Notes: generated from the letters alone by a model not told the origin. A stretch of 64,000 nucleotides of DNA from Naegleria gruberi (GCA_000004985.1 GG738857.1); one strand, 5' to 3'. Shown: positions 33,357 to 62,100, numbered from the stretch's first letter. A program made the numbers and translations.

Positions 33357-33406
33357 NNNNNNNNNNNNNNNNNNNNNNNNNNNNNNNNNNNNNNNNNNNN
33401 NNNNNN
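33357..33406. other. Assembly gap (50 N)
   Basis: Run of N in the sequence. Confidence 0.99.
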
Positions 33407-35302: not shown

Positions 35303-35360
35303 AGAAATCAATGTCATATATTCCATTCCTTAAATTGAGTTTAAATTGAATAGTAATCTT

Positions 35361-36497
35361 ATGATGGATTGTTTGGAAAGTATTTCCCAAAATTCGAAGG
35401 ATTTATCTTTGATATTGGAAGATGGAAATCTCATGTCCGATCAATTGAAATTGGATCAATTGAGGAATTTGTCAAAGTTAGAGATTGATTACCTGCCTTC
35501 CTTTGTTACCGTGATGAATCCGCATCTAGTTGAGTTGCAAGTTGGAAGTCTTTTGAACAACAATTTCTTTAACAGAACATTGACCAATACGTTGCTTTTG
35601 AAAAGTACATTTTATAATTTGAAAAGATTGGAACTAACCAACGTTGGAAATATGTCAGAAGCTCCTACCTATGTATTTCCCTCTTTAGAATATGTCTATT
35701 GTTTGGATTGTGATTTTGGTAGTGGAATTGATTTCTTTTCGAATAGTACAAAATTGAAGAGTTTAATTTTGATATGGTGTAAATTTAAGATTCTATCAAA
35801 AACTAAATTTCAATGTCAAGGATTGGAAGAATTGAATATTTCCACAACTAGTCCACACAAATTCTTCGATGTTTCCACATTGAAAGGACTACAACTAAGG
35901 AAACTAAATATTTATCCTGTAGGTATCACTGGCGTTAGTCCAGTAACAACAGCTGATCTTTCAGCAATCGAAGAAATGACGAGTTTGGAACATTTAACAT
36001 TTGGAGAATATATTGAGAAATTTTCATTTGCCAAATTGACCAATTTGAAATACCTACAGTTTCGTAAAAGTTTTGCATTTGTAGGAATTCTATCATTAAG
36101 CTCATATGAACACTTACTTCATAATTGTGTCATTTACTTTGACGTTGCAGCATCTGATGTTCCTGTACCTGCTTTTTCAGAAAATGGAAGAGTTATTGTT
36201 AATTCATCCACTTGTCGATTAATTGCTTCCAAATTGAAAGAGCTCAATATTAGTGTGAATGGTGTGAAATTTGTAATAATGACACCAACGTACATTTACG
36301 TTACTTTCAATATGCAATCAAGGAAACAATCTCATTATTCCTATCCTAGTTTTATTCTATTCGAAAGCAAACAACCACACACAATTGTAGCCAGCGGAAG
36401 AAGTTTGGAAAAGAAGATGGAAGTACCAAAAATCACCATTGATTATTTAATGAATTTAAAGTTTGAAACTAATGAAAAAAAATGTGAAATTCAATAA
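35361..36497 (+). CDS. LRR-like protein, paralog of 33479-34531
   Basis: The track ORF starts on TTG at 35346; the first ATG is 35361 (MMDCLESISQ...). Conserved blocks LELTNVGN...FPSLEYVYCLDCDFGSGIDFFSNSTKLKSLILIWCKF and C-terminal KKCEIQ*. Confidence 0.5.
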   Translation: MMDCLESISQNSKDLSLILEDGNLMSDQLKLDQLRNLSKLEIDYLPSFVTVMNPHLVELQVGSLLNNNFFNRTLTNTLLLKSTFYNLKRLELTNVGNMSEAPTYVFPSLEYVYCLDCDFGSGIDFFSNSTKLKSLILIWCKFKILSKTKFQCQGLEELNISTTSPHKFFDVSTLKGLQLRKLNIYPVGITGVSPVTTADLSAIEEMTSLEHLTFGEYIEKFSFAKLTNLKYLQFRKSFAFVGILSLSSYEHLLHNCVIYFDVAASDVPVPAFSENGRVIVNSSTCRLIASKLKELNISVNGVKFVIMTPTYIYVTFNMQSRKQSHYSYPSFILFESKQPHTIVASGRSLEKKMEVPKITIDYLMNLKFETNEKKCEIQ

Positions 36498-41145: not shown

Positions 41146-41214
41146 AATTTTACCATCTCTCTTCTTTTTGATACTCAATTGGTTAATCAATGTGGTACAG
41201 ATGTATACTATTAT

Positions 41215-43313
41215 ATGTGGTTCAGCAAGTATTTGATTGTTTATGTGGTTGTTTGTGGATTGGTTGCTTGTGGCTCTCTTTTGCCAACCTATTTGACCAC
41301 CACTGATTACAATGTCTCATTTGGTGACTTTTCTTCAACTAGTATTGCCAACATGAGTATCAAGACCAATGATAAGATTTACGTCTTTTTCCTTGTTACT
41401 ATTGCATTCCCAATCCTTGGTCTTGTCTTTATTTATGGTTTGAATAGATTGTCTAGACAGTTAATCAAGTCAAGAACCAACATTGGTTCCTTGTACACTG
41501 TCATGGTTAATGGAATTTCAAGAAGTGTAAGAGATAGGAAGAAATTATTGGAGGACTTTAAGCAAAGATATGGAGATTGTGTTGTTGATGCCCATTTAGC
41601 TCTTGATCTCAATAATTTGAGTGAATTGGATGAAAAGAGAGAGGATTTGGAGAGGATGTTGAGAGGAGCTGAACGTGAATATGAAAAGAGTGGCCGTAGA
41701 CCACAAATCAAAGTTAAGGGTCTGATGGGATTTTTCGGAAAGAAGGTTGATGCTATTGAAGAATACAGCAAGGCCTTGGAAAGTGTCAATAAGGAGATTA
41801 ACATTCTCAGACTCAATCCAAACAAGACTATTCACGGTACCGGATATGGATTTGTGACCTTCTCAACAATGGATGACGCACAAAGATGTCTCAATGAACA
41901 CAAGGATATCAATTGTTGTTGTGGTATTTCTATTCCTTGGTGGTTATGCTCTCCAAGTGGATGGGGATACGGAGGTATTGAAAGAGCTCCAGAACCAGAT
42001 GATGTTCTCTTTGAAAATTTGAGTATTGGATCAACCAATCGTTGGGTTAGATCATTGATCTCATCTGCTGTTATTACATCCTTCTTGCTTTTGATCTATG
42101 CCATCTCAACAACAGTTTCCTGGTACTATTGGTATAAGGGTCAAAACTATAGCTCTGTAAAAGATTACTTTATAGATACTGATGCTTCCGTTATTGGAGT
42201 TGATACTTTGGCCTTAGTTTTGATGGTTCTGGCCGAGTTGTTGCCTGAAGCCGTCTCACTCACCAATGAAATTGTTAAACCAGTCATTGAAGTTTTGAGT
42301 GACTATGAAAAGCATCCATCAAGAACATCCAGAAGAAAAACCATCCTCAGAAAGACAATTTTCTTTATTACCTTGTCTATTATGATCTTCCCATTCTTTA
42401 TCAGATGGATTAAGGCTGTGTGGGGTGTTAGTATGAATGCAGATTTTCCATTCAACAATTATGCCTATTTTTTCAACTTTATTGGCACTGAAGTGGCTAC
42501 ACTTATTATGGCTTTGTGTACAATTGCCAAATCTTTGGAATATACATTCATGTTTATCATTATAATGGTCAAGTATAGATTCAGTGACAATGGTAATGGA
42601 AATAGGGAATTAGAAAGACTTCCTTTCGATTATGAAGCCAACATTGGAGTCAAGATTGCAATTCTCATGCTAACCCTTCTTTACGGAAGTGCTGTCCCAT
42701 GCATGTTTGCATTCTCCTTAATTTACTATGTGGTTACTTATTATTTGGACAAGTATTTGATTTTATACTTTTTCGAGAAGGCCCCAGACAGTGATGGTAC
42801 TCTAATGAGAACTACTTCAGACACATTGGCTTACTATCTTTCCATCTATCCAATTTTGGTTATTTTCATGATTCCTTCATTGGCTAGCTTATGGTCAACT
42901 TGGCTTATTTACTTGCCAACTATTTTTGTTTTCTACATGGTTGTTCGTATTGTTAGAAATAGAATGTCAAGATCAGAGATGGACATGTTGGTAGTTTCCT
43001 TGAGTAGTATGCCTCATGATGATATTGAAAAACAAGAGGAAGTGGATATTAATGCAGGAGATAGTTTGGAAATGGAGGTTACCGATTCAGCTAGTCCATC
43101 TTCACCAATTTCCATTCCTCAAAGAATTCCAGTCAAGAATGGCATTGCCACATCCTCTATTAGGTCCTTGATGAGCTTTGTTGCTGGTGAGGAACAAGTA
43201 GTTTCCATCTATGATAAGGAAGTTGAGAAACGTCTTGATGTCGATCAAAGAGTATTGGCCTCTCGTTACAGACATCCATACTTGAAAAAGGATAAGAGAA
43301 GAGCTGCATCAGC
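41215..43313 (+). CDS. OSCA/TMEM63/CSC1-like stress-gated cation channel, 3' end lost in gap (partial)
   Basis: TM pair followed by the cytosolic RRM-like domain (TVMVNGISRSVRDRKKLLEDFKQRYG..., NPNKTIHGTGYGFVTFSTMDDAQRCL) and multiple C-terminal TM helices typical of the family. The track start at 41179 is TTG; the first in-frame ATG is 41215. The frame runs into the N-run at 43314. Confidence 0.7.
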
Positions 43314-44236
43314 NNNNNNNNNNNNNNNNNNNNNNNNNNNNNNNNNNNNNNNNNNNNNNNNNNNNNNNNNNNNNNNNNNNNNNNNNNNNNNNNNNNNNNN
43401 NNNNNNNNNNNNNNNNNNNNNNNNNNNNNNNNNNNNNNNNNNNNNNNNNNNNNNNNNNNNNNNNNNNNNNNNNNNNNNNNNNNNNNNNNNNNNNNNNNNN
43501 NNNNNNNNNNNNNNNNNNNNNNNNNNNNNNNNNNNNNNNNNNNNNNNNNNNNNNNNNNNNNNNNNNNNNNNNNNNNNNNNNNNNNNNNNNNNNNNNNNNN
43601 NNNNNNNNNNNNNNNNNNNNNNNNNNNNNNNNNNNNNNNNNNNNNNNNNNNNNNNNNNNNNNNNNNNNNNNNNNNNNNNNNNNNNNNNNNNNNNNNNNNN
43701 NNNNNNNNNNNNNNNNNNNNNNNNNNNNNNNNNNNNNNNNNNNNNNNNNNNNNNNNNNNNNNNNNNNNNNNNNNNNNNNNNNNNNNNNNNNNNNNNNNNN
43801 NNNNNNNNNNNNNNNNNNNNNNNNNNNNNNNNNNNNNNNNNNNNNNNNNNNNNNNNNNNNNNNNNNNNNNNNNNNNNNNNNNNNNNNNNNNNNNNNNNNN
43901 NNNNNNNNNNNNNNNNNNNNNNNNNNNNNNNNNNNNNNNNNNNNNNNNNNNNNNNNNNNNNNNNNNNNNNNNNNNNNNNNNNNNNNNNNNNNNNNNNNNN
44001 NNNNNNNNNNNNNNNNNNNNNNNNNNNNNNNNNNNNNNNNNNNNNNNNNNNNNNNNNNNNNNNNNNNNNNNNNNNNNNNNNNNNNNNNNNNNNNNNNNNN
44101 NNNNNNNNNNNNNNNNNNNNNNNNNNNNNNNNNNNNNNNNNNNNNNNNNNNNNNNNNNNNNNNNNNNNNNNNNNNNNNNNNNNNNNNNNNNNNNNNNNNN
44201 NNNNNNNNNNNNNNNNNNNNNNNNNNNNNNNNNNNN
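43314..44236. other. Assembly gap (923 N)
   Basis: Run of N. The track ORF 43309-44256 and the X-stretches are gap artefacts. Confidence 0.99.
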
Positions 44237-46174
44237 CTCATCATTATCCTCTCCATCTGAAGATCGATTCGTATTTTTCACAAATAAACAGCAATAAATT
44301 GAACAACTCGAGAAACAGAGCAAAACTAAAAAGGTCAACCCTAACACTCCAACCATTCCATATCCAACCTCAATTGGGAATGTGTTAAAAATTGGAATCT
44401 TTGGACTTCTACTATAAATAAGTGGGAAGAATAAACAAATGGCAGAGAAGAGTAGAAAGATGAGTACAATAATCAATGTGCATAGCCCTCCAAAAGCACA
44501 GCACAGAGAATACCAAATATTATCACCTGGTGTTGAAGTTTGCTCAATCACTGCTGCAGGAATATAAATCCCAGAATTGTTACTTGTTGAAAAGGATGAA
44601 AAGTAGCTCGGTATCTTCTTAATTTGAACAATATTCTGATTCAAATCTTGTTGGTGAACTGCTTGTTGCTGCTGCTGACCTTCTTGATTGCCGATTGCTG
44701 CTGCTGTTGCATTAGTGTTAGCTCCATTTCCCTCTTCAAGTTTGTGTTGTTGGTTTGGATTTTCCATTGTATTGACATTCTGGTGTTCATTCTCGTCCTT
44801 TGTGTGAAGTTTGAAAAGTGTTTTAATTCCCTCAAAGTTTTCAGCACTCGTTATATGCAAATAACACAGCAATTGTTCACTCGTATACTTGGACAGCAAT
44901 CTCTTACTTCTATAATAGTCATAGTAACGATAGTTTTGTCTGAGCTTTCTTCTCTTTGATTCCAATTCTTCAACTTCTTGATTATCTATGATATTGTGAT
45001 AATCAAATTCAATTTCAAAATTTGGGAAAAACTTGACTCCAATATCATAAATTGCTTCCTCAAATACCTCGTGATAATGTGCCAGAGTTGACTTTCTAAA
45101 TTTGTGTTTTGGTCTATTCTTAATATTAAATACTATACAAAGGAGAATGCATCCAACAAGTGTAATTGTGAAAATTGCACTCAAAACTATTGAAAAAGTT
45201 CCTTCAGCAACTGCATCTTTTAAAACTACAAAGTAAATGAGAGCTAGTGCCAAAGTACCGACAGCAGCTGCCAAAGTTGAAACACACAAAATGAAAAGGT
45301 AGACATTGACAGATTCGAATATTGAACATTTCATCAATTCATCTTGAGTAATTCGTTTCATCACATTTCCCAATAGCATTAATTCCTTTCTCTGTTTATC
45401 AGTCAAATTCAATGAATGAAGTGAATAAATTATTTGTTGTTGTTGCAAAATGGTCAATCGTGTTCTCAAATGTGCTGGAATTTGTGGAATTTCAGAAAGT
45501 AAATCAAACGAAATTGGTGGAGGATCTTGACTTTTCAACAATTCCAATTCATCAGGTGTAAAATCAAGATCATTATCTAACAAATCATTTTCTGTATCGT
45601 CATCATCATAATCTTCCTTTCGTTTCTTTTTCTTCTTTTTTCCTGAATTTTCTTGTTTTTGATCTACTGCACCTTGTTGCTCAACTGTTGTTGCTGTTGC
45701 TGTTGCCACTACTACACCTGCTAATTGTTGTTGTTGTTGTGGTTGTTGTGGTGATTGAGGCACAGTGGAAGGAGAGGCAACTCTATTTGGTTGTAAAGGA
45801 TGATCATTGGTTGTAATGGGTGGTGAACAGGCAATATTTCCATCATTGTGAATGTTATTGTTGTTGGTACTGCTGTTGTTCGGAATATTGTTCAATTGTA
45901 CTGTCATTTCCTGTTGTTGTTGTTGTTGTTGCAAATTCAAATTCAAATTCAAATTATTAATAGTATTATTATTAGTATTGGAATTAATTTGATTTGGTGG
46001 TAATGAGACAAGTGTTGGTTGATCGAAATTTCTAGTGATGGTTTTTTCGGGAGAGTTATTGTTTATATCTGGTAGGACAACAATAATTTGAGAAGCATCA
46101 TGGTTAGTCGTGGCCACCTCCTCCAATTTGGACTTGTCACTTGCTTGTTCGTTATTGGGATGGAGTTGTGACAT
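44237..46174 (-). CDS. Hypothetical multi-pass membrane protein with Q/N-rich N-terminal region (partial, C-terminus in gap)
   Basis: ATG at 46174 (MSQLHPNNEQASDKSKLEEV...). Several predicted TM segments (LFILCVSTLAAAVGTLALALIYFVVL, SIVLSAIFTITLVGCILLCIVFNI, WYSLCCAFGGLCTLIIVLIFLLFSAICLFF). The frame is open into the N-run. Confidence 0.5.
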
Positions 46175-50316: not shown

Positions 50317-50828
50317 ATGGTTTCCGATAGTCACTTCCACTCCTCATCCTCCCAGCAGGATTTCCAACAAGTTGTGCAACAATACAAGTTTACCATAGAA
50401 GCAATTTTCGATAACCAAGAAGCAAGAGCTTTGTTTAGAAGCTTTTTGAAGAAGGATTTGAATGAAGGTATGTTGTGATGTTTAGTTTTATTGTTTATTA
50501 ATTACAAATTCTTTACAAATAGAACCATTCCTTTTCTATGAATCTGTTGAAAAGTATAACAAGACAAGACTTGATAAGAATAGATTCGAATTGGCTAGTG
50601 AAATAATAGACAAGTTTATGGTTGTGGGAGCTCAACACGAATTGAATTTGTCAACTACACTGAGGAATGACATTTTGAAATCATGGAAACAAATATACGA
50701 AAAGAATAAGGATTTACCTGACTCTGATTTGATAACGTGTCCAAAAGATTTATTCACTAAGGCCCAAGACATAATTTTCATTGAACTCAAACAAGATAAT
50801 TTCCCAAGATTTGTAAATTCAGAAACTT
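50317..50828 (+). CDS. RGS (regulator of G-protein signalling) domain protein, 3' end in gap (partial); join(50317..50467,50523..50828)
   Basis: FRSFLKKDLNEEPFLFYESVEKY (RGS N-terminal core, restored across a 55-nt GTATGT...AATAG intron at 50468-50522) and IFIELKQDNFPRFVNSE (RGS C-terminal helix). The frame runs into the N-run at 50829. Confidence 0.65.
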
Positions 50829-51993
50829 NNNNNNNNNNNNNNNNNNNNNNNNNNNNNNNNNNNNNNNNNNNNNNNNNNNNNNNNNNNNNNNNNNNNNNNN
50901 NNNNNNNNNNNNNNNNNNNNNNNNNNNNNNNNNNNNNNNNNNNNNNNNNNNNNNNNNNNNNNNNNNNNNNNNNNNNNNNNNNNNNNNNNNNNNNNNNNNN
51001 NNNNNNNNNNNNNNNNNNNNNNNNNNNNNNNNNNNNNNNNNNNNNNNNNNNNNNNNNNNNNNNNNNNNNNNNNNNNNNNNNNNNNNNNNNNNNNNNNNNN
51101 NNNNNNNNNNNNNNNNNNNNNNNNNNNNNNNNNNNNNNNNNNNNNNNNNNNNNNNNNNNNNNNNNNNNNNNNNNNNNNNNNNNNNNNNNNNNNNNNNNNN
51201 NNNNNNNNNNNNNNNNNNNNNNNNNNNNNNNNNNNNNNNNNNNNNNNNNNNNNNNNNNNNNNNNNNNNNNNNNNNNNNNNNNNNNNNNNNNNNNNNNNNN
51301 NNNNNNNNNNNNNNNNNNNNNNNNNNNNNNNNNNNNNNNNNNNNNNNNNNNNNNNNNNNNNNNNNNNNNNNNNNNNNNNNNNNNNNNNNNNNNNNNNNNN
51401 NNNNNNNNNNNNNNNNNNNNNNNNNNNNNNNNNNNNNNNNNNNNNNNNNNNNNNNNNNNNNNNNNNNNNNNNNNNNNNNNNNNNNNNNNNNNNNNNNNNN
51501 NNNNNNNNNNNNNNNNNNNNNNNNNNNNNNNNNNNNNNNNNNNNNNNNNNNNNNNNNNNNNNNNNNNNNNNNNNNNNNNNNNNNNNNNNNNNNNNNNNNN
51601 NNNNNNNNNNNNNNNNNNNNNNNNNNNNNNNNNNNNNNNNNNNNNNNNNNNNNNNNNNNNNNNNNNNNNNNNNNNNNNNNNNNNNNNNNNNNNNNNNNNN
51701 NNNNNNNNNNNNNNNNNNNNNNNNNNNNNNNNNNNNNNNNNNNNNNNNNNNNNNNNNNNNNNNNNNNNNNNNNNNNNNNNNNNNNNNNNNNNNNNNNNNN
51801 NNNNNNNNNNNNNNNNNNNNNNNNNNNNNNNNNNNNNNNNNNNNNNNNNNNNNNNNNNNNNNNNNNNNNNNNNNNNNNNNNNNNNNNNNNNNNNNNNNNN
51901 NNNNNNNNNNNNNNNNNNNNNNNNNNNNNNNNNNNNNNNNNNNNNNNNNNNNNNNNNNNNNNNNNNNNNNNNNNNNNNNNNNNNNNNNNNNNN
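50829..51993. other. Assembly gap (1165 N)
   Basis: Run of N. Track ORFs 50591-51997 and 50819-52015 are extended through N and are artefactual beyond the gap edges. Confidence 0.99.
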
Positions 51994-52008
51994 TTGAATT
52001 ATTGTAAT

Positions 52009-52908
52009 TTACCACATTTCAGCCAGTCTGAAATTGCTTGCAAAGTAAGTTGTAATAAGACCTCCCCAAACATGTGGACCATAATAAGTAGATTGAATGT
52101 ACCACCTATCTGGATTCTTATAAGCAGCAGGAATATTATTTGCAGTGTCAGCAACAACTTGACGAAGTCTTGGCTTGACATCCTTAGAAAAGACAAGAGT
52201 TTGTCCCACAGTTGGATAGGTCAATTCATAGGAAGCAATCACATCATCATAACCCCATGTATTTGTAGTATTAGTGGCAGCTCCATTGAAAAACCAATTC
52301 TTATTTGGAACACGTGATGGACTAACTGAGGCATAATGCAAATTGAGTTGATAGAAAAGTGTCAAACTTGGAGCATCATAATTCTTCAACACAAATGAGG
52401 TAATGAAAGTAGCTTGAGTAATACATGAAGAAGCAACTTGTTGAATGTAATAGGGTCTTACATTTATGGTATGTAATAATTGCTTTCCATTATTGGCAAG
52501 TGGACCTTCAATTGCTGGAACGAAAGGGGCAGTATCATACGTATTGGAAGTGGTTGGTTCAGCAAATAAATTGGCTTCCACACCACAACCTAACAAATTA
52601 CCATTCAGGGCTAGCTCAATAGTATCATTTCCTGGAGTGAAAACAACACGAGAGCTTGGATTAGCTACAGAATATTGATTATTGAAAGCATTGAGTTCGT
52701 AAGCATTTTCCCATTGAGCAACATGCCAATTTGAAACACCAGGGGTTCCAGGAGTTTTCAAATTTCTATTGTAAACTTTGGCGCCCATCTTGTAACCTGT
52801 GGCTTTAGGTACAAGGTCATTGTAAGTGACAGCCAAAACCAAGACAACTTGATAGAGGAACACTGTTGTAAAGATTAAGAGAAATCTTGATGAATATTTG
52901 GATAACAT
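52009..52908 (-). CDS. Secreted protein (signal peptide MLSKYSSRFLLIFTTVFLYQVVLVLA), family unknown
   Basis: The 326-aa track ORF starts at 52989, but the hydrophobic signal follows the second Met (ATG 52908), which is preceded by an A-run leader on the coding strand. TAA stop at 52009-52011. Confidence 0.5.
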   Translation of the reverse strand: MLSKYSSRFLLIFTTVFLYQVVLVLAVTYNDLVPKATGYKMGAKVYNRNLKTPGTPGVSNWHVAQWENAYELNAFNNQYSVANPSSRVVFTPGNDTIELALNGNLLGCGVEANLFAEPTTSNTYDTAPFVPAIEGPLANNGKQLLHTINVRPYYIQQVASSCITQATFITSFVLKNYDAPSLTLFYQLNLHYASVSPSRVPNKNWFFNGAATNTTNTWGYDDVIASYELTYPTVGQTLVFSKDVKPRLRQVVADTANNIPAAYKNPDRWYIQSTYYGPHVWGGLITTYFASNFRLAEMW

Positions 52909-53216
52909 TTTTTTTTTGAATGGAAATTTAGAGATCTTTAAAGCTGATGTTAAATAGCTTTTCGAAACTTGCCGAATCGTTCGTGTCATTTGTTTACAAT
53001 GTGGAAATGTGATATTAATGAACGAGCTAGAAGTTCGATAGAGAACTCGTTATTTCTTTCTTATAAGGAAATGGAATATTAACATCTTCTAATAAAATAC
53101 CCTCCAATTTCAACTACAATTTGTTTATTAGAAACCTTTCTAACTTATTTTACAACCATATAAATTTCATTGTTATTCATCAATGAAAACAGTTGAAATT
53201 ATTCATTGCCAGTAAA

Positions 53217-53458
53217 TTAGATTGTTCTATTGGAAATAGAACAGAAGAGATTTGTAAAATAAGGAATTATTTGATTGGTTAAATGATTAATTTCTATTGG
53301 TTGAACATGTTGTAAATATTGTGATGGAGCAATTCAATTTAGTATAAATTGAACGTTGACAACACTCAATAACACTCAAGAGCTCCAAAGAAAATGTCTC
53401 AACAACAACAATCACAACAAAATCAACAAACTCTACAATCCTACCAACCAACCAACAG
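53217..53458 (+). repeat. Left terminal direct repeat A1 (242 bp) of the DIRS/Ngaro-like element; contains the start codon of ORF1 and a 19-bp palindrome
   Basis: Identical to 57141-57374 except for an 8-bp insertion (taaaataa). Palindrome gttctattggaaatagaac at 53224-53242. Confidence 0.85.
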
Positions 53459-54122
53459 TTTTGATGCTTTCTCTACTAGAGATATGAATATTCCACAACA
53501 AAATCAACAACCTACTCAACAAACAACCCCACAAACAACTCAACAACCTAATCTCCAACCAAATCTTCAACCTAATCTCCAACCTCCTCAAGATGAAGAG
53601 GATGAAGAAGATGTTATCTTCAATGATAAAGAAGAAATTGATAATTTAACAGACCAACTCATGGAATTGTTTTACAAAGCAAAGCATAACAATATCAAGT
53701 TTGGTTCATTGCAAGATTTAGTTCTAATGACTTCATTTGAAAAACCAGTCATCAGTAAAGAGAAGGGTAAAGAATTACAACAGGAACTCAATTCCATTAC
53801 TGCTGGTCATTCAGTTCTGTTTGGTAATAATAGATCCAACGAGTTGACCAATGAGAAGTTGAGAAATGATTATAACTTTGTACTCATGGTTGGTAAAATG
53901 AGCGAAAGAATGTTCAAAGTTAGTTCTGCCCAAGAAATGTCTAACATTATGAACCTATTAATTAATGTTGCTACCTTTAGAAAGACAATTTATGATGTAG
54001 CATTATCCACCAATTCTGTAGATAAGATTGCAAATGTCGAAAATACGATGTCAGTTTCTGCTAATCCCTACACTAATGAGGTTATGAAGGAATTAAAAAA
54101 AAGAAAAGAAGAAAGAAACTGA
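53394..54122 (+). CDS. ORF1, Gag-like Q-rich protein of the DIRS/Ngaro-like element (242 aa)
   Basis: ATG lies inside repeat A1 (MSQQQQSQQNQQTLQSYQPTNS...). The same start is present in A2, where it terminates after 25 codons. TGA stop. Confidence 0.6.
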   Translation: MSQQQQSQQNQQTLQSYQPTNSFDAFSTRDMNIPQQNQQPTQQTTPQTTQQPNLQPNLQPNLQPPQDEEDEEDVIFNDKEEIDNLTDQLMELFYKAKHNNIKFGSLQDLVLMTSFEKPVISKEKGKELQQELNSITAGHSVLFGNNRSNELTNEKLRNDYNFVLMVGKMSERMFKVSSAQEMSNIMNLLINVATFRKTIYDVALSTNSVDKIANVENTMSVSANPYTNEVMKELKKRKEERN

Positions 54123-54220
54123 AACTAACATTTTCCAAATGGTAAAGAATAGAAATAATAATTACAGACACGACTATAACAAAAGGAAAAGAGACAGTAG
54201 TAGTTACAACCAAAAACAAT

Positions 54221-56176
54221 ATGATTACCAAAACAGAAGAGGTGGTAAACGGTATGACTATAATAACTCCAACAAAAATGGAGGAAAAAATGGAACCTCA
54301 AATTCCAAGTGACCCCATAATAGGGGGAAGGTTATCCAAATTTTCAAAGGAGTGGGAAAAGATAACCTCCAACAAAACAATATTAGATTGGGTAAAGAAT
54401 GGTCTAACAATCAACCACAACCCCCAACTAATCCATCCACTTCCACAGAGAGAACCAACGAAAGAGAAAGAGAAAATTTGGTTCCAAGAACACATAGAAC
54501 AACTGAAACAACAAGAAATGATTATAGAAGTTTCCAACAAAGAAGAAGTATTAATTCACCCAATCTACCTCATACCAAAGCGAAATTCAACAGAGCCATT
54601 CAGACCAATTTTAGATATGAGAGGGGCAAACTCTGGAATAGAAACGCTTCACTTCAAACAAGAAACGTTGAAGACAATAATGAAATTGTTAAAAAGAGGT
54701 CAATGGTGTGGAAAAATAGATCTGAAATCTGGTTACAATCACCTAAAAATAGAACGCAATTCACAGCATCTTCTAGCCTTCCAATTCAACAACAAAAGGT
54801 ACAAATACACAACTCTTCCATTTGGGCTAAATATCGCACCAAGAACATTTCACAAGATTATGAAAACAGCAATCACTCAATTAAGAAAAGAAAGTATAGT
54901 CATATTCTTCTATCTGGACGATATTTTAATAATAGGAAATTCCTTTCAAGAATGTCAGAAAAACATAGAAAGAACGAGACAATTATTAGAAAGTCTTGGC
55001 TTTGTAATTCAGATGAAAAAGTCAGTACTGTCTCCTGTTCAAGAAATAGATTTTTTAGGATCAACAATCAACACAAAACTAGGAACACTTTGTCTTCAGA
55101 AAGAAAAAATCAACACAGCCCAAAAGATCCTCAAGAAACTAGAATTGAAACATTTAAGTCAACGAAGAATCAAGATCAGAAAGTTCCAATCAATAATAGG
55201 GAAATTGATGTTCCTAAGTACAATAGACAAGAACTTAAGACCTTTTCTAATTCGACCTCAACATCACATTTCAAATATGGTAACAAAGAAAGGATGGTTA
55301 GGAGAAATGCATATCTTACGAAGCGATTTTCAAGATTTAAAGACAATCTCTGCAATCCTAAAACAATCAAAAGGAACAACGTTCGAACTAGAAACAACAT
55401 TACAAATCCTAACAACGGACTCATCGACGACAGGTTTTGGTGGAGTATCCAAAAACCTAATAATGCATGGCAGATGGAGCCATCAAATTCAAGAATACCA
55501 TATCAATTTAAAAGAATTACTAGCAGTCGAACAAATGATATTGGCAATTCAAAAGAACAAGTCTTTTTCAAAAGGAACACAATTTCACGTACGAACAGAC
55601 AATCAAGTAATCATGACTTACCTCAAGAATGGAGGAGGAAAAGTAGATTACTTAGCAACAGTAGCAAGAAGAATATGGAAAATATGTATCAACAACAATT
55701 GGCTAATCAGAAAAGTAACGTACCTTCCTTCCAAAGAAAATTTCTTTGCAGACAAGCTCTCAAGATTGGGAGAATGGGAAATAATCAATTCAACTTTCAA
55801 TCAACTCCAGCAAAAATTTGGTCCTTTCAGCATAGACCAATTTGCAAGCCAAACAAATTGCAAAGTAAGAAGGTTCGGTCAAAGAAACTTCTATCAGGAT
55901 GCTTTTTTGAACAATTGGGAACAGGAGAACAATTATTTGGTTCCTCCCTTAGGCTTAATCCTCCCAACAGTAACACACTTACTAAAAAGCAAAGCAAAGG
56001 CTCTTCTAATCGTTCCAAAATGGGAAAGCGCAGTTTGGTGGCCAGTTCTAATGAAGATAACACAAGAAACATTATTCTTAACGAAAGAGGACATGATCTT
56101 CAATCAAGACATGGAACTATCCAGAAACTCAGAATGGAACTTTGTAGCACTAAAGGTTCAAGCAACCACCTACTAA
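54221..56176 (+). CDS. ORF2, reverse transcriptase plus RNase H of the DIRS/Ngaro-like element (651 aa)
   Basis: RT motifs (IPKRNSTEPFRPILDMRGAN, FQFNNKRYKYTTLPFGLNIAPRTF, IFFYLDDILIIG). RNase H (TDNQVIMTYLKNGGGK...ENFFADKLSR). The DIRS-typical downstream block FSIDQFASQTNCKVRRF...LVPPLGLILPTV...ALLIVPKWESAVWWPVL. Confidence 0.8.
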   Translation: MITKTEEVVNGMTIITPTKMEEKMEPQIPSDPIIGGRLSKFSKEWEKITSNKTILDWVKNGLTINHNPQLIHPLPQREPTKEKEKIWFQEHIEQLKQQEMIIEVSNKEEVLIHPIYLIPKRNSTEPFRPILDMRGANSGIETLHFKQETLKTIMKLLKRGQWCGKIDLKSGYNHLKIERNSQHLLAFQFNNKRYKYTTLPFGLNIAPRTFHKIMKTAITQLRKESIVIFFYLDDILIIGNSFQECQKNIERTRQLLESLGFVIQMKKSVLSPVQEIDFLGSTINTKLGTLCLQKEKINTAQKILKKLELKHLSQRRIKIRKFQSIIGKLMFLSTIDKNLRPFLIRPQHHISNMVTKKGWLGEMHILRSDFQDLKTISAILKQSKGTTFELETTLQILTTDSSTTGFGGVSKNLIMHGRWSHQIQEYHINLKELLAVEQMILAIQKNKSFSKGTQFHVRTDNQVIMTYLKNGGGKVDYLATVARRIWKICINNNWLIRKVTYLPSKENFFADKLSRLGEWEIINSTFNQLQQKFGPFSIDQFASQTNCKVRRFGQRNFYQDAFLNNWEQENNYLVPPLGLILPTVTHLLKSKAKALLIVPKWESAVWWPVLMKITQETLFLTKEDMIFNQDMELSRNSEWNFVALKVQATTY

Positions 56177-57099
56177 CATTATTCAAAGCAAGAGATGTTA
56201 TCCTCAAATACAAGTTAGCTGATTCGACAATCAGAACATACAGAAACCACGTTAACAAATTTAAAGATTTTTGTTTCTGGTATAACATTGAAAGATGTTG
56301 GAATCTGAATTCCATTTCCCTTTATCTCACAAACATGTTATTGAAAGGCTCAGGTGGGTCAGTGAAACAAGCATGTGCCGCCCTTCAACATGAAACCAAA
56401 TGTTTGGGCATTGTGGTTGATTGGAAAAATTCAATAATTTCCGATATCAGATCATCTACAACAAAGATATGGTCTCTCTTTGATAGAGAAAAACTAATTA
56501 GAGAACCATTTGATTTAGCTAACCTAAAATATTGGTTAGAAAACCCACCAAACATTGACCCTTGGTCATTCAAACTCTATGCTGCAGTAATTGCTGTTGG
56601 TGTTCGTGCATTAATGAGACCTGGAGAGTTAGCGGATTTGTCATTCGGTGATGTGTCTTACAATAAGGATGGTCATTTAGTTTTCACTTTAGGACAAACA
56701 AAAACAGATCAACAAGGAAAAGGTGAAAAAATTACTATTGAACCTTCCTATTCCGAAATATGTCCTGTCAAAATATTCCAAACCTATTATGATCACTGTA
56801 AGCAATTTAAATCTCCTAAGTGCCCATTATTTAGCAACCCTAGATCCAACACATTCTTTAGAACTGCAGATATTTCTAATATAGTGAAATATGTATCACA
56901 ACATAATCCAAACAACACTTCAATTGTCTCTGGACATTCACTTAGAAAAAGAGGTGCTACACATCTTGCAAAATCTGGTTACACATCTTCTCAACTAAAA
57001 GTTGCTGGACGATGGAGATCTGATTGTTACTTAACATACATATCAGAAGAAATCTTACCTTCCTTAGGTACTTCAAATACTTTATTCTCGGGACAATAA
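56134..57099 (+). CDS. ORF3, tyrosine recombinase (YR) of the DIRS/Ngaro-like element; part of a 915-codon open frame (54352-57099) overlapping ORF2 in the +1 frame
   Basis: YR catalytic residues in order: VRALMRPGELADL (Arg), HSLRKRGATHLAKSGY (His-x-x-Arg), GRWRSDCYLTYI (Tyr). First ATG after the ORF2 stop region is at 56134. The stop at 57097-57099 abuts repeat B1. Confidence 0.75.
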   Translation: MELCSTKGSSNHLLTLFKARDVILKYKLADSTIRTYRNHVNKFKDFCFWYNIERCWNLNSISLYLTNMLLKGSGGSVKQACAALQHETKCLGIVVDWKNSIISDIRSSTTKIWSLFDREKLIREPFDLANLKYWLENPPNIDPWSFKLYAAVIAVGVRALMRPGELADLSFGDVSYNKDGHLVFTLGQTKTDQQGKGEKITIEPSYSEICPVKIFQTYYDHCKQFKSPKCPLFSNPRSNTFFRTADISNIVKYVSQHNPNNTSIVSGHSLRKRGATHLAKSGYTSSQLKVAGRWRSDCYLTYISEEILPSLGTSNTLFSGQ

Positions 57100-57140
57100 C
57101 CCAATTAGTATTTAAAATAATTTATTATTTGTAGAAATCT

Positions 57141-57374
57141 TTAGATTGTTCTATTGGAAATAGAACAGAAGAGATTTGGGAATTATTTGATTGGTTAAAT
57201 GATTAATTTCTATTGGTTGAACATGTTGTAAATATTGTGATGGAGCAATTCAATTTAGTATAAATTGAACGTTGACAACACTCAATAACACTCAAGAGCT
57301 CCAAAGAAAATGTCTCAACAACAACAATCACAACAAAATCAACAAACTCTACAATCCTACCAACCAACCAACAG
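57141..57374 (+). repeat. Right direct repeat A2 (234 bp) of the DIRS/Ngaro-like element
   Basis: Matches A1. Palindrome copy at 57148-57166. Confidence 0.85.
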
Positions 57375-57881
57375 CCCACCCATTTAACCAATTCCTTAAC
57401 GGAATTAGTTAAATTCCCACCCTTTATACATATTATTGTAAGCAGTAACAAATAAGCACATTTGTTCACTTACCTCAGTAAGCTAGAGTTAGCAGACTTC
57501 TCTACAACTGAGTACACATCATTCTTAATTATAAATAGAATGAGTGAGTTCTCTGGAACAATTGGCCATAACGGTTGAATTTCAACTTCTAGGTCAAATT
57601 TATTAGAAAACTGCATTGTAATTTTAGATTCTCCAAAAAGTCTGTACAAGAAGGGACAAGAGAAAAGATCTTTAGCACTAAAGAGACAGACCTTTGAAAT
57701 GTGTATCTTCAAAGTAATACTTGTGCTTTAGTTTATTAAATCTCGATTTCTCGGGACCAAAGCTAAAATCTATCTCAAATTCCACTTTACTTGTAAAGCA
57801 AAATTTTGTGAGACATCTTATAGGAGTAATAAAACCCAATTAGTATTTAAAATAATTTATTATTTGTAGAAATCTTAATAA

Positions 57882-58895
57882 ATGTTTAAAAGAAATTACA
57901 AAAAAATGCAAGAAATCAACGAGCACCCATTCGACGATTTGATCATTAGTAAAATATTAGAATATCTATCCTCATCCACATTAGAAATCATCAATTTAGG
58001 ACAAGTTTGCAAATCATTCCGAAGAATTTGTCTTCATCCTTCCACAAAATTATCATTTTCCAATTATTTATCCAAAAATCGTGATGAAAATTGTGATGAA
58101 TACAATGATCATGATACAGTGAAGGAATATTTACCATTTAATTGGGAAGCATGTTTCGATTTTTTACAATATTTCACAACGATTGATTTGGGATGTCAAT
58201 TTGGGATGCCAGATGCAATGGATTATATTGTTAATGTGGCACTTGCATCGACGAAAATTGAAGAATTATATTTGAAAAATTGTGAAATTTATGCATTGAC
58301 TAATGTAAATTGTAAAATATCGAGATTGGAATGTTGTCAAGTTGTCGTTCCATTACAATTTGAAAGTATTATTCAATATTTTCCTTATTTGAAACATTTA
58401 AAAGTTGAAGATTGTCATGTCCAGTTGGAATGTTCACCAAAATTGCAAATGATATGCGAATGCTTGGAAAGTTTAGTTGCAATTGATTCGTTGAAAGATT
58501 TATTTACAATTAATATTCAATTTGGTCAATTAACAGAATTGACATTTATTTCAACGTTTGAACAGGAAATGTATTTTGAGAAAATTGATTATTGTATGAA
58601 TTATGAAAATTTTCCAAAATTGAAAAAGTTAACTTTGAAAGTTCCATCGAAATGCATTCAATTAGATTTACCAATTTTGGAAGAATTAGTATTGGAAGCA
58701 GAAATAGATTATTATGATTTTCGATCAATGCACACAATGCTTAAATTAGAAAATTTAAAAAAATTGGAAACTACTTCTTTCGATGTATGCAAAGCCAATT
58801 TAATTGCTCCAAATTTGGAAACTTTGATCATTAGAGACGAATTTAACATTGTAAAATCGTGGAATATTAATCCGATTCCCCAAATCGATAAATAA
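57882..58895 (+). CDS. F-box protein (337 aa); start codon lies 5 bp downstream of transposon repeat B2
   Basis: DDLIISKILEYLSSSTLEIINLGQVCKSFRRI is an F-box motif. ATG at 57882, TAA stop. Confidence 0.55.
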   Translation: MFKRNYKKMQEINEHPFDDLIISKILEYLSSSTLEIINLGQVCKSFRRICLHPSTKLSFSNYLSKNRDENCDEYNDHDTVKEYLPFNWEACFDFLQYFTTIDLGCQFGMPDAMDYIVNVALASTKIEELYLKNCEIYALTNVNCKISRLECCQVVVPLQFESIIQYFPYLKHLKVEDCHVQLECSPKLQMICECLESLVAIDSLKDLFTINIQFGQLTELTFISTFEQEMYFEKIDYCMNYENFPKLKKLTLKVPSKCIQLDLPILEELVLEAEIDYYDFRSMHTMLKLENLKKLETTSFDVCKANLIAPNLETLIIRDEFNIVKSWNINPIPQIDK

Positions 58896-59181: not shown

Positions 59182-62100
59182 ATGCAACAATTTGTAAAGC
59201 GAGCAAAGAGTAGGGAGAATGGAAGGGATGGCCAACTGTAAGTGTTTTGGTGTGTTTAGAATAATAATTATTGATGTTTCGAATAGTGGTCAAAGAGGTG
59301 AAAATGGTCATGTAAGTTAAAACTAAAGATATTCATCATACATTATTGATGTGCATAGACTGGAAGACACGGTGCTCACGGATATGGTCATGGAGGGAAT
59401 GGCTATCACGGAGAAAGGTAAATTAAACTAATATTTAACTAAAATATCTTCAAAAAGAGGAGGCAATGGATTTAACGCAACCAATGCTTGGCATGGTGAG
59501 AATGGTGAAGATGCAAAACACGGCAAAGATATTCACATTCTATTGGAAGGTGATGTCATGTCAACTGTTGTTGTGAGTGGTGACTTTAGTTATGGAGGAG
59601 GTGTTTGTGAGATGGTTTGTGTATCAGAGGGAGGAAAGTAAGTTTAGCTTTAAATGCACATGTATTGAAATTAATATTCGAAAGTGGTGGAAATGGTGGA
59701 AAGTAAGTTTGGTTTTGTGAATAATGTTATTAATTTACAAAAAAAATAGTGGTGGAAAGGGAGGCGAGTAAGTAGAAGAATTCCTATAGTTCTGTATTCT
59801 AATTTCGAATAGTGGTGGAGCTGGTGGTCAGTAAGTTTTACTTTAATTTCTATTCGAAATGAACATTTGAAAAAGAGGTGGAATAGGAGGTGCTGGTTCA
59901 CAAGGTAAAAGAGGTGCACCAGGTCAAAATGGAGAAAGGTAAGCAATTATTCTTAACATTAGATTCTAATATTAATATTCGAAATGTAGAGGTGGAAATG
60001 GTGGCAAGTAAGTTTTACATTTTGCAATTATACGAATCAATTCAGTGGTGGAGAGTAAGTTTTTCAAAATTTCATTAAAATTCACTTTTCAAGTGGTGGA
60101 GAGTAAGTAAGAAAGTCTTTTTTAAACTTTATTCGAAACTAATTAGTGGTGGCCATGGAGGAAAGTAAGTTGTTCCTTAATTTTGTAAACAATTTTTACA
60201 CAAACAAGTGGAGGAAATGGTGGCAGGTAAGTTGAAAAAAGGAAATTTCATATTCAAATAACCTTTCGAATAGAGGAGGAAATGGTGGAAATGGAGGATC
60301 AGTCTATATTGACACCACCAATCCATATTTATTGAATTATATTGAAGGAACGAGTATTTCAGGAAGAGGAGGATCTGGTGGTAGAGGTGGAAATGGAGGA
60401 ATTGGTGGCAGTGGTGGAAGGTAAGTGAACTTTCGAATATGTTGAAATTGCAACCTGTTTAAAAGTCCTGGAGAGGGTGGACATGCTGGAAAGGGAGGTG
60501 ATCCAGGTGATCCAATCACCATTACTAGAACTCTTCCAGATAATAGAGTTCACACAGAAATTAAGAGATTTCATCATGGACCAGATGGATCAAAAGGTTA
60601 CAGAGGAAAACAAGGAAAATCTGGAACTAATGGTCAATCAGGACAATCAGGACAACAAGGAACTGATGGAGTTTGTGGAGCTGTCATGTACAGAGTTCTT
60701 GATCCATTCACTAAAATGGTCATTGAACAATCAGCTAAAAAGTACAAACTCAAAGTTATTGATTTTTCATTTGTTCCATTAATTGATGATGGAATTTTGG
60801 AACCAGGAGAACAAGCCAAGATTACAAATTTTGTAATTAAGAATGAAGGTGGATTGACTGCTCCTGCAGGTGCTGAGGTTTCATTGACTGGTGATGGATT
60901 TACTGTTTGTAATATTCCAAAATTCATTCTTCCACAACCAATCGTGCCAGGTCAAGTAATTACTATCACTGATCAGGAATTTCTTGTCCGAGTTGAAGAA
61001 AGAATGAATAAGGAACCAAGAAATTTTGGATCTTTTGCTGCCAATGTCAGATTGAATACTCCAACTAAATATTATGATAAGAAACATGCTAAGGGATGTG
61101 AGAAGAATTTCACAGCAAGACTTCCATTGGCAATTGAATATGCCAACTGTACAAAGGCAATGGATAAACTTCAAAGAGGAATAATGAAGGTTGGTGTGAA
61201 GAATTTGGCAACATTACCTTATGGATCTATGAGTCAATCGATGGTTTGTCAAGTTGGATTGAAAATTGATTTTGATCCAAGAATGGTTGTTTTCCCAGAG
61301 TTGATTCCTAATGCAACAATGGTTGAACCAACCAGTCTCTATATTGAAATTCCAAATTTAATGGCTCTTTCATGTTTGGAACATAATATTGAGTTTGCAT
61401 TCACTGATAGAGTTAATTATTTCGACACCTTGTACTATTCCATTTCTCTTATTTATAAGGGAGAACAAATTGAAAAGCATCTGATGGATGTGAGAATGGC
61501 TCCTTCCTATATGCCTTCACCTCAAGGAGAAAATACATACGATGTCATTTTCTTTACTAATTCTCATATTAATAATGTGGAATTTATGAATTATATGAGA
61601 ATATTTGATGGATTAGCATTGAGAGTTAATTTCTGGGATATTCAAATTAATCAAGGATTGAGTTTCTTCAATAATGATGGAAGAACCAGACATCCAATTA
61701 CTTGGACCAATGATAATCAAGGAAAGGTAATTGTTTATCCAATGGCAAATGATATGGAATATCAACTCATGTTCTCCCATGATATTGTCAATATTGTAAA
61801 GCCAAATCCAGAAAACAAATTATTAGAAGGTGGAATAATTCTAGTTGGTAATGTAACCAATCAACAATTTATTGCCCATTTGAGAACTGCTTCAACAGAA
61901 GTCAAAATTCCAGACGATTCCATCTCTGACAGCTATGTCATTTCAAAGCCAGTTCGTGATCATTTAACTCAAAAATCCAATGAATACATTAAGAAGGTTG
62001 CAGTTACCAAACCAGCTCAGAATTTAGTACTTGGCAGAACTGTTTTCAATCCAAAGAAAATTGGTTCATTCAAAACGCTTTTAGGAGAAGCTTATTATTT

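What the first reader, a model, noticed from the sequence alone, without database searches (positions are those of the whole stretch)
53217..57877. Intact, apparently young DIRS/Ngaro-like tyrosine-recombinase retrotransposon with split direct repeats
The 242-bp and 234-bp repeats flanking the RT/RNase H/YR cassette are identical except for one 8-bp indel, which implies recent insertion or gene conversion. The element has direct, not inverted, terminal repeats. A 43-bp B sequence abuts A2 on its 5' side and recurs 460 bp downstream. This is the A1-internal-B1-A2-B2 arrangement of Ngaro/PAT-type elements, except that B2 is displaced by about 460 bp. ORF1 starts inside the A repeat, as in DIRS elements. 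I saw no methyltransferase-like region between RNase H and YR, which favours an Ngaro-like over a DIRS-1-like assignment. All three ORFs are open, so this may be an active copy of a family not yet described for this organism.
Basis: partly seen in the sequence, partly recalled or inferred. Interest (0 to 1): 0.7.

Follow-up and report, generated by a model that had tools for sequence, protein, structure and literature searches.

The report
Intact PAT-like tyrosine-recombinase retrotransposon in Naegleria
This is a complete, apparently recently inserted tyrosine-recombinase retrotransposon in the Naegleria gruberi genome; it is the PAT-like type (it does carry a methyltransferase-like domain), not the Ngaro type, so it is a new member of a known group, not a new kind of element.

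Summary
The repeats and ORFs are real and lie at the stated coordinates. A1 (53217-53458) and A2 (57141-57374) are identical apart from one 8-bp indel. B1 (57098-57141) and B2 (57833-57876) are identical over 44 bp, and B1 abuts A2. A unique 458-bp spacer (X) separates A2 from B2.

The host is Naegleria gruberi.

ORF2 encodes RT, RNase H and a Dam-like methyltransferase domain that scores above Pfam's cut-off, so the element is not Ngaro-like. It has no inverted terminal repeats or internal complementary region, so it is not DIRS1-like in the strict sense. Methyltransferase domain plus split direct repeats fits the structural definition of PAT-like.

The recombinase has the full Cre-type R-K-H-R-W-Y set and resembles Ngaro and PAT recombinases most. 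The RT domain resembles DIRS-like references most.

The recombinase ORF stays open across the whole pol ORF in the -1 frame: 1 stop against about 30 expected. This is a known DIRS trait.

DIRS-order elements, including a PAT-like Repbase entry (DIRS-1_NGr, only 34% RT identity to this copy), are already catalogued for N. gruberi.

Verdict: new member of a known kind, with modest interest. The spacer X is unexplained. VIPER/SIRE offers a precedent, with a spacer of about 30 bp.

The parts
53217..53458 (+). A1, the left terminal direct repeat (242 bp). It holds a 9-bp-stem hairpin (53223-53243), a TATA-like TATAAAT (53343-53349) inside a second hairpin (53333-53353), and the first 21 codons of ORF1.
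   Evidence: identical to A2 except an 8-bp indel; hairpins, z -6.3 and -4.5, chosen after seeing them; sequence.
53394..54122 (+). ORF1, 242 aa. Gag-like by position only. Q/P-rich N-terminus, no Cys, no zinc finger, no Pfam match.
   Evidence: no similarity to the ORF1 of relatives.
54221..56176 (+). ORF2 (pol), 651 aa. RT at aa 118-283 (nt 54572-55069, YLDD at aa 231). RNase H at aa ~396-515 (D400, E432, D460, D511). Dam-like methyltransferase domain at aa 519-627 (nt 55775-56101), with VPPL in place of DPPY.
   Evidence: RVT_1 4.7e-25; Dam 2.1e-8, above cut-off; RT_RNaseH 0.002; invariant columns in 30 homologues; motif positions.
54313..57099 (+). ORF3, an open frame of 928 codons in the -1 frame relative to ORF2. 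The first ~607 codons overlap pol and give a basic (pI 11.1), low-complexity product. The 321-aa YR proper starts at ATG 56134. The catalytic domain spans nt 56581-57021, with R (MRPGE), K (TKTDQ), HxxR (GHSLRKRG), W (GRWRS) and Y (YLTYI).
   Evidence: (1 stop against 30.5 +/- 3.9 expected under synonymous shuffling; 0 of 20,000 shuffles below 17).
57098..57141 (+). B1, the internal copy of the right end (44 bp). It starts within the ORF3 stop codon. With the start of A2 it forms the internal circle-junction copy ...GAAATCTT|TAGATTG..., which contains the palindrome AATCT-TT-AGATT.
   Evidence: sequence.
57141..57374 (+). A2, the internal copy of A (234 bp). It carries the same TATA-like box and the ORF1 ATG (57310), followed here by a stop after 25 codons.
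57375..57832 (+). X, a unique non-coding 458-bp spacer between A2 and B2. It starts with a 13-bp-stem hairpin (57382-57414) flanked by CCCACCC on both sides.
   Evidence: no similarity to the rest of the element or the window; no Rfam family, no tRNA; no Pfam match in its small ORFs; RNA fold of X+B2, z -4.07.
57833..57876 (+). B2, the right terminal repeat (44 bp). The host sequence resumes with AATAA, then the ATG (57882) of an F-box/LRR gene.
   Evidence: (F-box-like, 25.2 bits against a cut-off of 24.3).

Best explanation
This is a 4.66-kb autonomous retrotransposon of the DIRS order in Naegleria gruberi, with PAT-like architecture: A1-[ORF1, pol = RT/RNase H/MT-like, YR]-B1A2-X-B2.

**Shown here:**
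- All three ORFs are intact.
- The RT (YLDD), the RNase H (DEDD) and the Cre-type recombinase (R-K-HxxR-W-Y) keep their catalytic residues.
- The MT-like domain is present but lacks the DPPY-type motif.
- The recombinase ORF is kept open in the -1 frame across the whole of pol.
- The terminal sequences A(start) and B(end) are repeated side by side internally as B1|A2.
- There is no target-site duplication.

**Inferred from the published models for split-direct-repeat elements and from the DIRS-1 experiments:**
1. Transcription starts in A1, downstream of its TATA-like box, and ends in or near B2, so the RNA lacks the outermost ends.
2. During or after reverse transcription, the internal B1|A2 junction serves as the template that restores and joins the two ends into a circle.
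3. The YR inserts the circle by site-specific recombination at the B|A junction.
4. X is carried along as a structured 3' untranslated segment.
5. The near-identity of A1/A2 and B1/B2 means this copy inserted recently. It landed in a 232-bp divergent promoter region, 5 bp upstream of a host start codon.
For: **Repeats and layout.**

**Domains.**: RVT_1 4.7e-25; Dam 34.5 bits against a 28.1 cut-off; Phage_integrase 33.3 bits against 27.1. One search gives the conserved catalytic columns.

**YR catalytic residues.** Aligned with Cre and with Ngaro, PAT and DIRS references.

**YR affinity.** The best matches are Ngaro (45.7 bits) and PAT-like (31-37 bits) recombinases. DIRS-like recombinases score 25 or less. 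That matches the split-direct-repeat termini.

**RT affinity.** The RT is outside the Ngaro clade (100% bootstrap) and is most similar to DIRS-like references (135 bits).

**ORF overlap.** The frame is kept open: 1 stop against 30.5 +/- 3.9 expected. The same all-or-none pattern appears in relatives. In 35 of 36 relatives the YR is in the -1 frame.

**Termini.** No inverted terminal repeat was found.

**Host.**

**Literature.** Definitions are in PMC4157794, PMC6681497 and PMC9210276. The internal junction copy is essential for DIRS-1 retrotransposition (PMC7192593). Split repeats are expected to be identical at insertion (PMC6681497).
Against: - Only one copy could be examined, so the termini rest on the repeat boundaries alone.
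- The ends and the internal junction disagree by one T: TT at each end, TTT at B1|A2.
- A1 and A2 differ by an 8-bp indel in the part that the model says is copied from A2.
- The canonical arrangement has A2 directly followed by B2. Here 458 bp of unexplained sequence intervene.
- By RT similarity the nearest relatives are DIRS-like elements with inverted repeats (22 of 25 loci with enough flank). The RT tree does not resolve DIRS-like from PAT-like (23% bootstrap).
- There is no evidence of transcription, circles or mobility.
- ORF1 has no detectable homologue.
Confidence: 0.8

Rival explanations
1. Composite origin of the 3' end. The family's basic unit is A-I-B. This locus is a tandem of an autonomous unit (53217-57141) and a short non-autonomous A-X-B unit (57141-57876, 736 bp). 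It arose when a circle recombined at the left end of a resident A-X-B element, or with its A. A-X-B would then be a SIRE-like hitch-hiker, not part of the autonomous element.
For: Recombining a B|A circle at the left border of a resident A-X-B gives exactly A1-I-B1-A2-X-B2 (inference). In T. cruzi the short element SIRE equals A2 + ~30-bp private spacer + B2 of VIPER (PMC6681497). Isolated AB units occur for Cafeteria Ngaros (PMC8547959). The 8-bp indel between A1 and A2 is easier to explain if the two A copies have different histories. X is unrelated to the rest of the element.
Against: No free A-X-B unit was seen in the window. Apart from the indel, A1/A2 and B1/B2 have zero substitutions, as expected if they were templated from one another in a single event. 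An A-I-B unit alone would lack the internal junction copy that the replication model needs. X+B2 folds better than shuffles, which fits a functional 3' UTR.
Confidence: 0.2
2. Ngaro-like element: split direct repeats, RT/RNase H and YR, with no methyltransferase domain.
For: The A1...B1A2...B2 arrangement. The YR catalytic domain scores best against Ngaro recombinases (LvNgaro2 45.7 bits).
Against: A Dam-like MT domain is present above the Pfam cut-off. The RT scores 52-61 bits against Ngaro references but 100-135 bits against DIRS-like references. The Ngaro references form a 100%-bootstrap clade that excludes it. Long pol/YR overlaps are not usual in Ngaro (PMC3266345).
Confidence: 0.04
3. 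DIRS1-like element in the strict sense: inverted terminal repeats plus an internal complementary region.
For: The RT domain is most similar to DIRS-like references. Nearly all of the 80 nearest metagenomic relatives are of the inverted-repeat type with DIRS-type YRs. It has an MT domain and a long ORF overlap. N. gruberi families were assigned to DIRS1-like by similarity in PMC3266345.
Against: There are no inverted terminal repeats and no complementary internal region. The internal junction copy is in direct orientation. The YR is of the PAT/Ngaro type (HSLR..GAT, GRWRS), not the DIRS type.
Confidence: 0.08
4. A conventional LTR retrotransposon, or an assembly artefact that creates false repeats.
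For: Two ~240-bp direct repeats flank RT/RNase H ORFs. The window contains assembly gaps.
Against: No DDE integrase is present; a tyrosine recombinase is present instead. There is no target-site duplication and no TG...CA ends. A2 is not terminal, because B recurs 458 bp downstream. No N run lies inside the element; the gaps are at 33357-33406, 43314-44236 and 50829-51993.
Confidence: 0.02

Closest known systems
PAT-like superfamily of the DIRS order (PAT of Panagrellus, Toc3, Kangaroo, SkowPat; Repbase DIRS-1_NGr of N. gruberi is listed as PAT-like in PMC6681497)
   Same: Gag-position ORF, pol with RT/RNase H/MT-like domain, and a tyrosine recombinase. [quoted passage not shown] No zinc finger in ORF1, as in Toc3-type and non-metazoan PAT elements. 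The YR is of the HS[LF]R..GAT / GRW.S type shared with PAT-like references (31-37 bits).
   Different: A2 and B2 are separated by 458 bp, not adjacent. The RT domain scores higher against DIRS-like references than against PAT references. RT identity to DIRS-1_NGr from the same genome is only 34%, and the YR match is about 37 bits, so it is a different family. There is a long pol/YR ORF overlap.
DIRS1-like elements (Dictyostelium DIRS-1 and relatives)
   Same: The same ORF set, including the MT-like domain. The YR ORF is in the -1 frame, with a long overlap over pol in which stops are purged (PMC3266345). Highest RT similarity. An internal copy of the circle junction. No target-site duplication.
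   Different: The terminal repeats are direct, not inverted. The internal junction copy is direct, not complementary. The YR sequence type differs.
Ngaro-like elements
   Same: A1-[ORFs]-B1A2B2 logic. Closest YR catalytic domain.
   Different: Ngaro elements lack the MT domain and usually lack ORF overlaps. The RT here is outside the Ngaro clade.
VIPER and its short derivative SIRE in Trypanosoma cruzi
   Same: Split direct repeats in which A2 and B2 are separated by a private spacer. The A2-spacer-B2 block equals an independent short element (PMC6681497).
   Different: The spacer there is ~30 bp, against 458 bp here. VIPER lacks MT, and its RT and YR are only remotely similar (23-25 bits for RT; under 4 bits for YR). 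No free A-X-B unit has been shown here.

Membership tests
DIRS order (tyrosine-recombinase retrotransposons) | Encodes RT/RNase H together with a tyrosine recombinase, and no DDE integrase | tested here: met
   Pfam RVT_1 4.7e-25 and Phage_integrase 5.1e-8, both above their cut-offs; no integrase domain. RNase H DEDD columns are conserved.
DIRS order (tyrosine-recombinase retrotransposons) | YR with the catalytic R-H-R-Y residues | tested here: met
   R in MRPGE, K in TKTDQ, H and R in GHSLRKRG, W in GRWRS and Y in YLTYI align with Cre R173/K201/H289/R292/W315/Y324 (the Cre numbering is from my own knowledge) and with reference YRs.
DIRS order (tyrosine-recombinase retrotransposons) | Internal copy of the joined termini (circle junction), and no target-site duplication | tested here: met
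   B1|A2 at 57098-57374 repeats the right and left ends. The flanks ...CAGTAAA and AATAAATG... share no duplication. One T is ambiguous at the junction.
Ngaro-like | No methyltransferase-like domain in pol | tested here: not met
   PF05869 (Dam) at ORF2 aa 519-627, 34.5 bits against a cut-off of 28.1. The region is conserved in homologues.
Ngaro-like | RT groups with Ngaro references | tested here: not met
   The Ngaro references form a clade with 100% bootstrap that excludes it. Scores are 52-61 bits against Ngaro and up to 135 bits against DIRS-like references. The tree is neighbour-joining on 179 columns only.
DIRS1-like (sensu stricto) | Inverted terminal repeats plus an internal complementary region | tested here: not met
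   No terminal inverted repeat. The internal junction copy is in direct orientation.
DIRS1-like (sensu stricto) | MT-like domain downstream of RT/RNase H | tested here: met
PAT-like | MT-like domain present | tested here: met
PAT-like | Split direct repeats A1 ... B1-A2-B2 | tested here: met
   A1/A2 and B1/B2 are direct and nearly identical, and B1 abuts A2. Deviation: a 458-bp spacer lies between A2 and B2.
PAT-like | Phylogenetic grouping of RT/RH with PAT references | tested here: inconclusive
   The RT domain scores higher with DIRS-like references. The neighbour-joining tree places it basal to the DIRS-like references with 23% bootstrap. The literature also fails to recover PAT-like or DIRS-like as clades (PMC6681497, PMC4157794). 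The YR groups by score with Ngaro and PAT references.
Pat1-like subgroup of PAT | [quoted passage not shown] | tested here: not met
   ORF1 has no cysteine. This matches Toc3-type and non-metazoan PAT elements (PMC4157794).
Repbase DIRS-1_NGr (N. gruberi) | Same family, meaning high sequence identity | tested here: not met
   33.6% identity over 119 aa of RT. YR 37 bits. Only the partial sequences in the PMC6681497 supplements were available.

The most novel reading that the evidence does not exclude
The 458-bp structured spacer is not incidental. One possibility is that A2-X-B2 is the prototype of an undescribed SIRE-like non-autonomous element that parasitises this family in Naegleria. The other is that X is an obligatory cis-acting module (primer, packaging or 3'-end signal) that defines a heterolobosean PAT-like lineage combining a DIRS-type pol with a Ngaro/PAT-type recombinase and termini, that is, a modular recombinant between superfamilies. 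In addition, the 607-codon stop-free -1 frame over pol could encode a functional basic, disordered N-terminal extension of the recombinase.
Probability: 0.15. Interest if true: 0.5.

Novelty: new member of a known kind. Interest (0 to 1): 0.3.

Why it matters
Intact, apparently young split-direct-repeat elements are rare. The replication model for this class has never been tested; only the inverted-repeat DIRS-1 has been studied experimentally.

A complete copy in a culturable protist, with a clean internal junction copy, gives a defined substrate for such tests. It also corrects the earlier impression that N. gruberi holds only degenerate DIRS-type copies.

The combination of a DIRS-like RT with a PAT/Ngaro-like recombinase and termini adds a data point to the debate on modular evolution of these elements.

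The insertion 5 bp upstream of a host start codon could affect that gene.

None of this changes the known picture of the DIRS order.

Tried and rejected
- **Other copies in public assemblies.** I looked up the exact products of ORF1, ORF2, the YR and both flanking genes. None is on record, so copy number and alternative boundaries could not be assessed.
- **Copies in the window.** No second copy or fragment is present.
- **Nature of X.** It has no similarity in either orientation to the rest of the element or the window, no Rfam family above threshold, no tRNA, and no Pfam match for its small antisense ORFs or for the truncated ORF1 in A2.
- **Hidden inverted repeats.** None were found.
- **Homology of the overlap-frame product.** It has no Pfam match. 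Against relatives it scores 30, 23 and 18 bits at best, and two of these three matches carry heavy composition bias. The background from non-coding frames reaches 15 bits. The result is inconclusive and I did not count it as evidence.
- **ORF1 homology.** None was found.
- **Close YR relatives.** The word-indexed search returned only bacterial-type recombinases at about 26% identity, which is uninformative. I used the reference alignment from PMC6681497 instead.
- **First tree attempts.** One timed out and one had invalid distances. Only one search is used.
- **Frameshift sites.** Five canonical slippery heptamers lie in the ORF2 frame within the overlap. I did not test them against chance, so they are not evidence.
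- **Conventional LTR reading.** Rejected: no integrase, no target-site duplication, and A2 is not terminal.
Full report
**Observation**

- A1 (53217-53458, 242 bp) and A2 (57141-57374, 234 bp) align without a single substitution. The only difference is an 8-bp stretch (TAAAATAA) present in A1 alone.
- B is 44 bp. It occurs at 57098-57141, sharing one T with the start of A2, and again at 57833-57876, 100% identical.
- The blastn E-values within the window are 1e-113 for A and 1.6e-16 for B, so chance is excluded.
- A unique 458-bp stretch, which I call X (57375-57832), lies between A2 and B2.
- All repeats are direct. No terminal inverted repeat appears with 9-nt seeds or with a sensitive local alignment of X in both orientations against the rest of the element.
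- No other copy or fragment is present in the 64-kb window.
- The three assembly gaps all lie outside the element.

**Coding content**

- **ORF1 (53394-54122)** starts inside A1. It has no Pfam match and no cysteine.
- **ORF2 (54221-56176)** matches RVT_1 (4.7e-25), RT_RNaseH (0.002) and PF05869, the Dam methyltransferase. The Dam match covers residues 519-627 at 34.5 bits, above the curated cut-off of 28.1.
- An alignment with 29 homologues shows invariant YxDD, RNase H D/E/D/D and MT-region columns: D539, A542, P575, P576, P599 and W601.
- Motif IV of the MT-like domain reads VPPL where an active enzyme has DPPY. This fits the published view that DIRS-type MT domains are inactive (PMC4738411).
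Its argument for Ngaro rested on that statement.

**The recombinase**

The third frame is open from 54313 to 57099. Its last 321 codons, from ATG 56134, match Phage_integrase (33.3 bits against a cut-off of 27.1).

Aligned with Cre and with reference recombinases taken from the supplement of PMC6681497, every catalytic position is occupied: R (ALMRPGE), K (TKTDQ), H and R (GHSLRKRG), W (GRWRS) and Y (YLTYI).

**The long overlap**

The recombinase frame is the -1 frame of pol, and it has no stop anywhere in the overlap.

- Shuffling synonymous codons within ORF2 keeps the protein and the codon usage. It gives 30.5 +/- 3.9 stops in that frame. None of 20,000 shuffles had fewer than 17. The observed count is 1, and that stop lies before the frame opens.
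- The +1 frame has 87 stops against 75 expected.
- Third-position T is 18% in pol, against 35-36% in ORF1 and in the non-overlapping part of the YR ORF.
- Relatives show the same all-or-none behaviour. Five have 0-1 stops against 16-34 expected; four have 42-61 against 48-65 expected.
- 23 of 80 relatives have three or fewer stops in that frame.
- In 35 of 36 relatives the YR ORF is in the -1 frame.
- The overlap product is basic (pI 11.1) and low-complexity and has no Pfam match. Its sequence is not clearly conserved: the best matches to relatives score 30, 23 and 18 bits, two of them with heavy composition bias, against a background of up to 15 bits from non-coding frames.
- Long pol/YR overlaps are a described trait of DIRS1-like elements and are unusual in Ngaro and VIPER (PMC3266345).

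I infer that selection keeps the frame traversable, or keeps a disordered basic extension. How ribosomes enter the frame is not shown.

**Host and prior knowledge**

A neighbouring gene product is 100% identical to a Naegleria gruberi protein on a 573-kb contig.

- Piednoel et al. detected 7 copies in 6 families of DIRS-type elements in N. gruberi. They found them too damaged to characterise or place in a tree (PMC3266345).
- Ribeiro et al. list Repbase DIRS-1_NGr as PAT-like (PMC6681497, supplements 14 and 15).
- The present RT is 33.6% identical to the DIRS-1_NGr RT fragment, and the YR match scores 37 bits. It is a different family in the same genome.
- None of its proteins, and no close relative, is in the 5.8-billion-cluster protein collection. 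The best RT hit has 32% identity.

**Classification**

PMC4157794, PMC6681497 and PMC9210276 give the definitions:

| Group | Defining features |
|---|---|
| Ngaro and VIPER | no MT domain |
| DIRS1-like | MT domain, inverted terminal repeats, internal complementary region |
| PAT-like | MT domain, split direct repeats |

This element has an MT domain and split direct repeats, so by structure it is PAT-like. It is of the type without a zinc finger, with a forward YR and with the internal repeats downstream of the YR.

The sequence evidence is mixed in an informative way.

- **RT.** The RT domain scores 100-135 bits against DIRS-like references, 54-108 bits against PAT-like references and 52-61 bits against Ngaro.
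- **Tree.** A neighbour-joining tree on 179 columns excludes it from the Ngaro clade, which has 100% bootstrap. It leaves DIRS-like against PAT-like unresolved (23% bootstrap), as in the literature.
- **YR.** The recombinase scores best against Ngaro (up to 45.7 bits) and PAT-like (31-37 bits) references, and 25 bits or less against DIRS-like ones.
- **Metagenomic relatives.** Among the 80 nearest RT relatives, 22 of the 25 with enough flanking sequence have inverted repeats spanning pol, and one has only a direct repeat. In 66 of 68, the YR best matches DIRS-type references.

So the recombinase type goes with the terminal-repeat type, and the pol goes with DIRS-like elements. This is what the proposed modular evolution of these elements would predict (PMC6681497).

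**The displaced B2**

The canonical order is A1-[ORFs]-B1A2B2 (PMC8547959, PMC9210276). Here X intervenes.

- X is unique.
- It has no Rfam family or tRNA and no credible ORF.
- Together with B2 it folds better than all 100 shuffles (z -4.07).
- It opens with a 13-bp-stem hairpin flanked by CCCACCC. I picked this hairpin after seeing it, so its z-score is biased.

One precedent exists. In T. cruzi, SIRE consists of the VIPER 5' part, a private spacer of about 30 bp and the VIPER 3' part. It corresponds to the A2-B2 block of VIPER (PMC6681497).

Two readings remain.

1. X is a 3' untranslated module that travels with the element. In the replication model it sits between A2 and B2 in the RNA and is retained.
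2. The locus is a tandem of an A-I-B unit and a resident short A-X-B unit, joined by recombination at A.

Only other copies can decide.

**Mechanism**

The section 'best explanation' separates what is shown from what is inferred.

- A carries TATAAAT at 53343-53349, 45 nt before the ORF1 ATG. A therefore plausibly combines a promoter part with a transcribed part.
- A2 holds the same signals. It could drive transcripts through X and B2 into the F-box/LRR gene, whose ATG (57882) lies 5 bp beyond the element.
- The junction B1|A2 reads GAAATCTT|TAGATTG and contains the palindrome AATCT-TT-AGATT.
- The two ends carry TT where the junction has TTT, so the exact crossover point is uncertain by one base.
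- There is no target-site duplication.

**Verdict**

This is a real, intact and probably young DIRS-order retrotransposon. It is correctly recognised as such but assigned to the wrong superfamily. It is a new member of a known kind in a genome where such elements were already reported. Its interest is modest.

Noticed in passing
window 52990-53216 and 57877-57884: The element sits in what would otherwise be a 232-bp divergent intergenic region. It lies 227 bp upstream of the ATG of a minus-strand gene (52009-52989) and 5 bp upstream of the ATG of an F-box/LRR gene (57882-58895). The F-box gene is thus cut off from its former upstream region and might be transcribed from A2 through X and B2.
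   Followed up: partly
window 59200-60450: A run of very short exons encoding Gly-rich, collagen-like units (for example GGTCAAAGAGGTGAAAATGGTCAT and GGTGGAAATGGTGGAAAG). They are separated by ~40-60-nt introns with GTAAGT...TAG borders, repeated at spacings of roughly 63-128 nt. This looks like a micro-exon gene.
   Followed up: partly
window 33479-34531 and 35346-36497; also 983-2743, 5046-6212, 36511-38343: Two neighbouring ORFs are clear paralogues: both are leucine-rich-repeat-like and both end in ...KCEIQ. Several further ORFs have F-box-like N-termini. This is a local cluster of an expanded gene family.
   Followed up: no
window 33357-33406, 43314-44236, 50829-51993: Three runs of N (assembly gaps). 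Two of them interrupt long ORFs (41179-44388 and 43160-46174; 50591-51997).
   Followed up: no
window 53223-53243 (= 57147-57167) and 53333-53353 (= 57249-57269): Two perfect 9-bp-stem, 3-nt-loop palindromes lie inside the A repeat. One is 6 nt from the left end. The other encloses the TATA-like box. They could be recombinase or priming sites; this is untested.
   Followed up: partly
related loci L003, L011, L049, L060 and L043 (metagenome contigs): Some DIRS-like relatives combine inverted terminal repeats with an additional direct repeat spanning pol. L043 has a direct, not inverted, copy of the right extension. These are possible intermediates between the inverted-repeat and split-direct-repeat architectures.
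   Followed up: no
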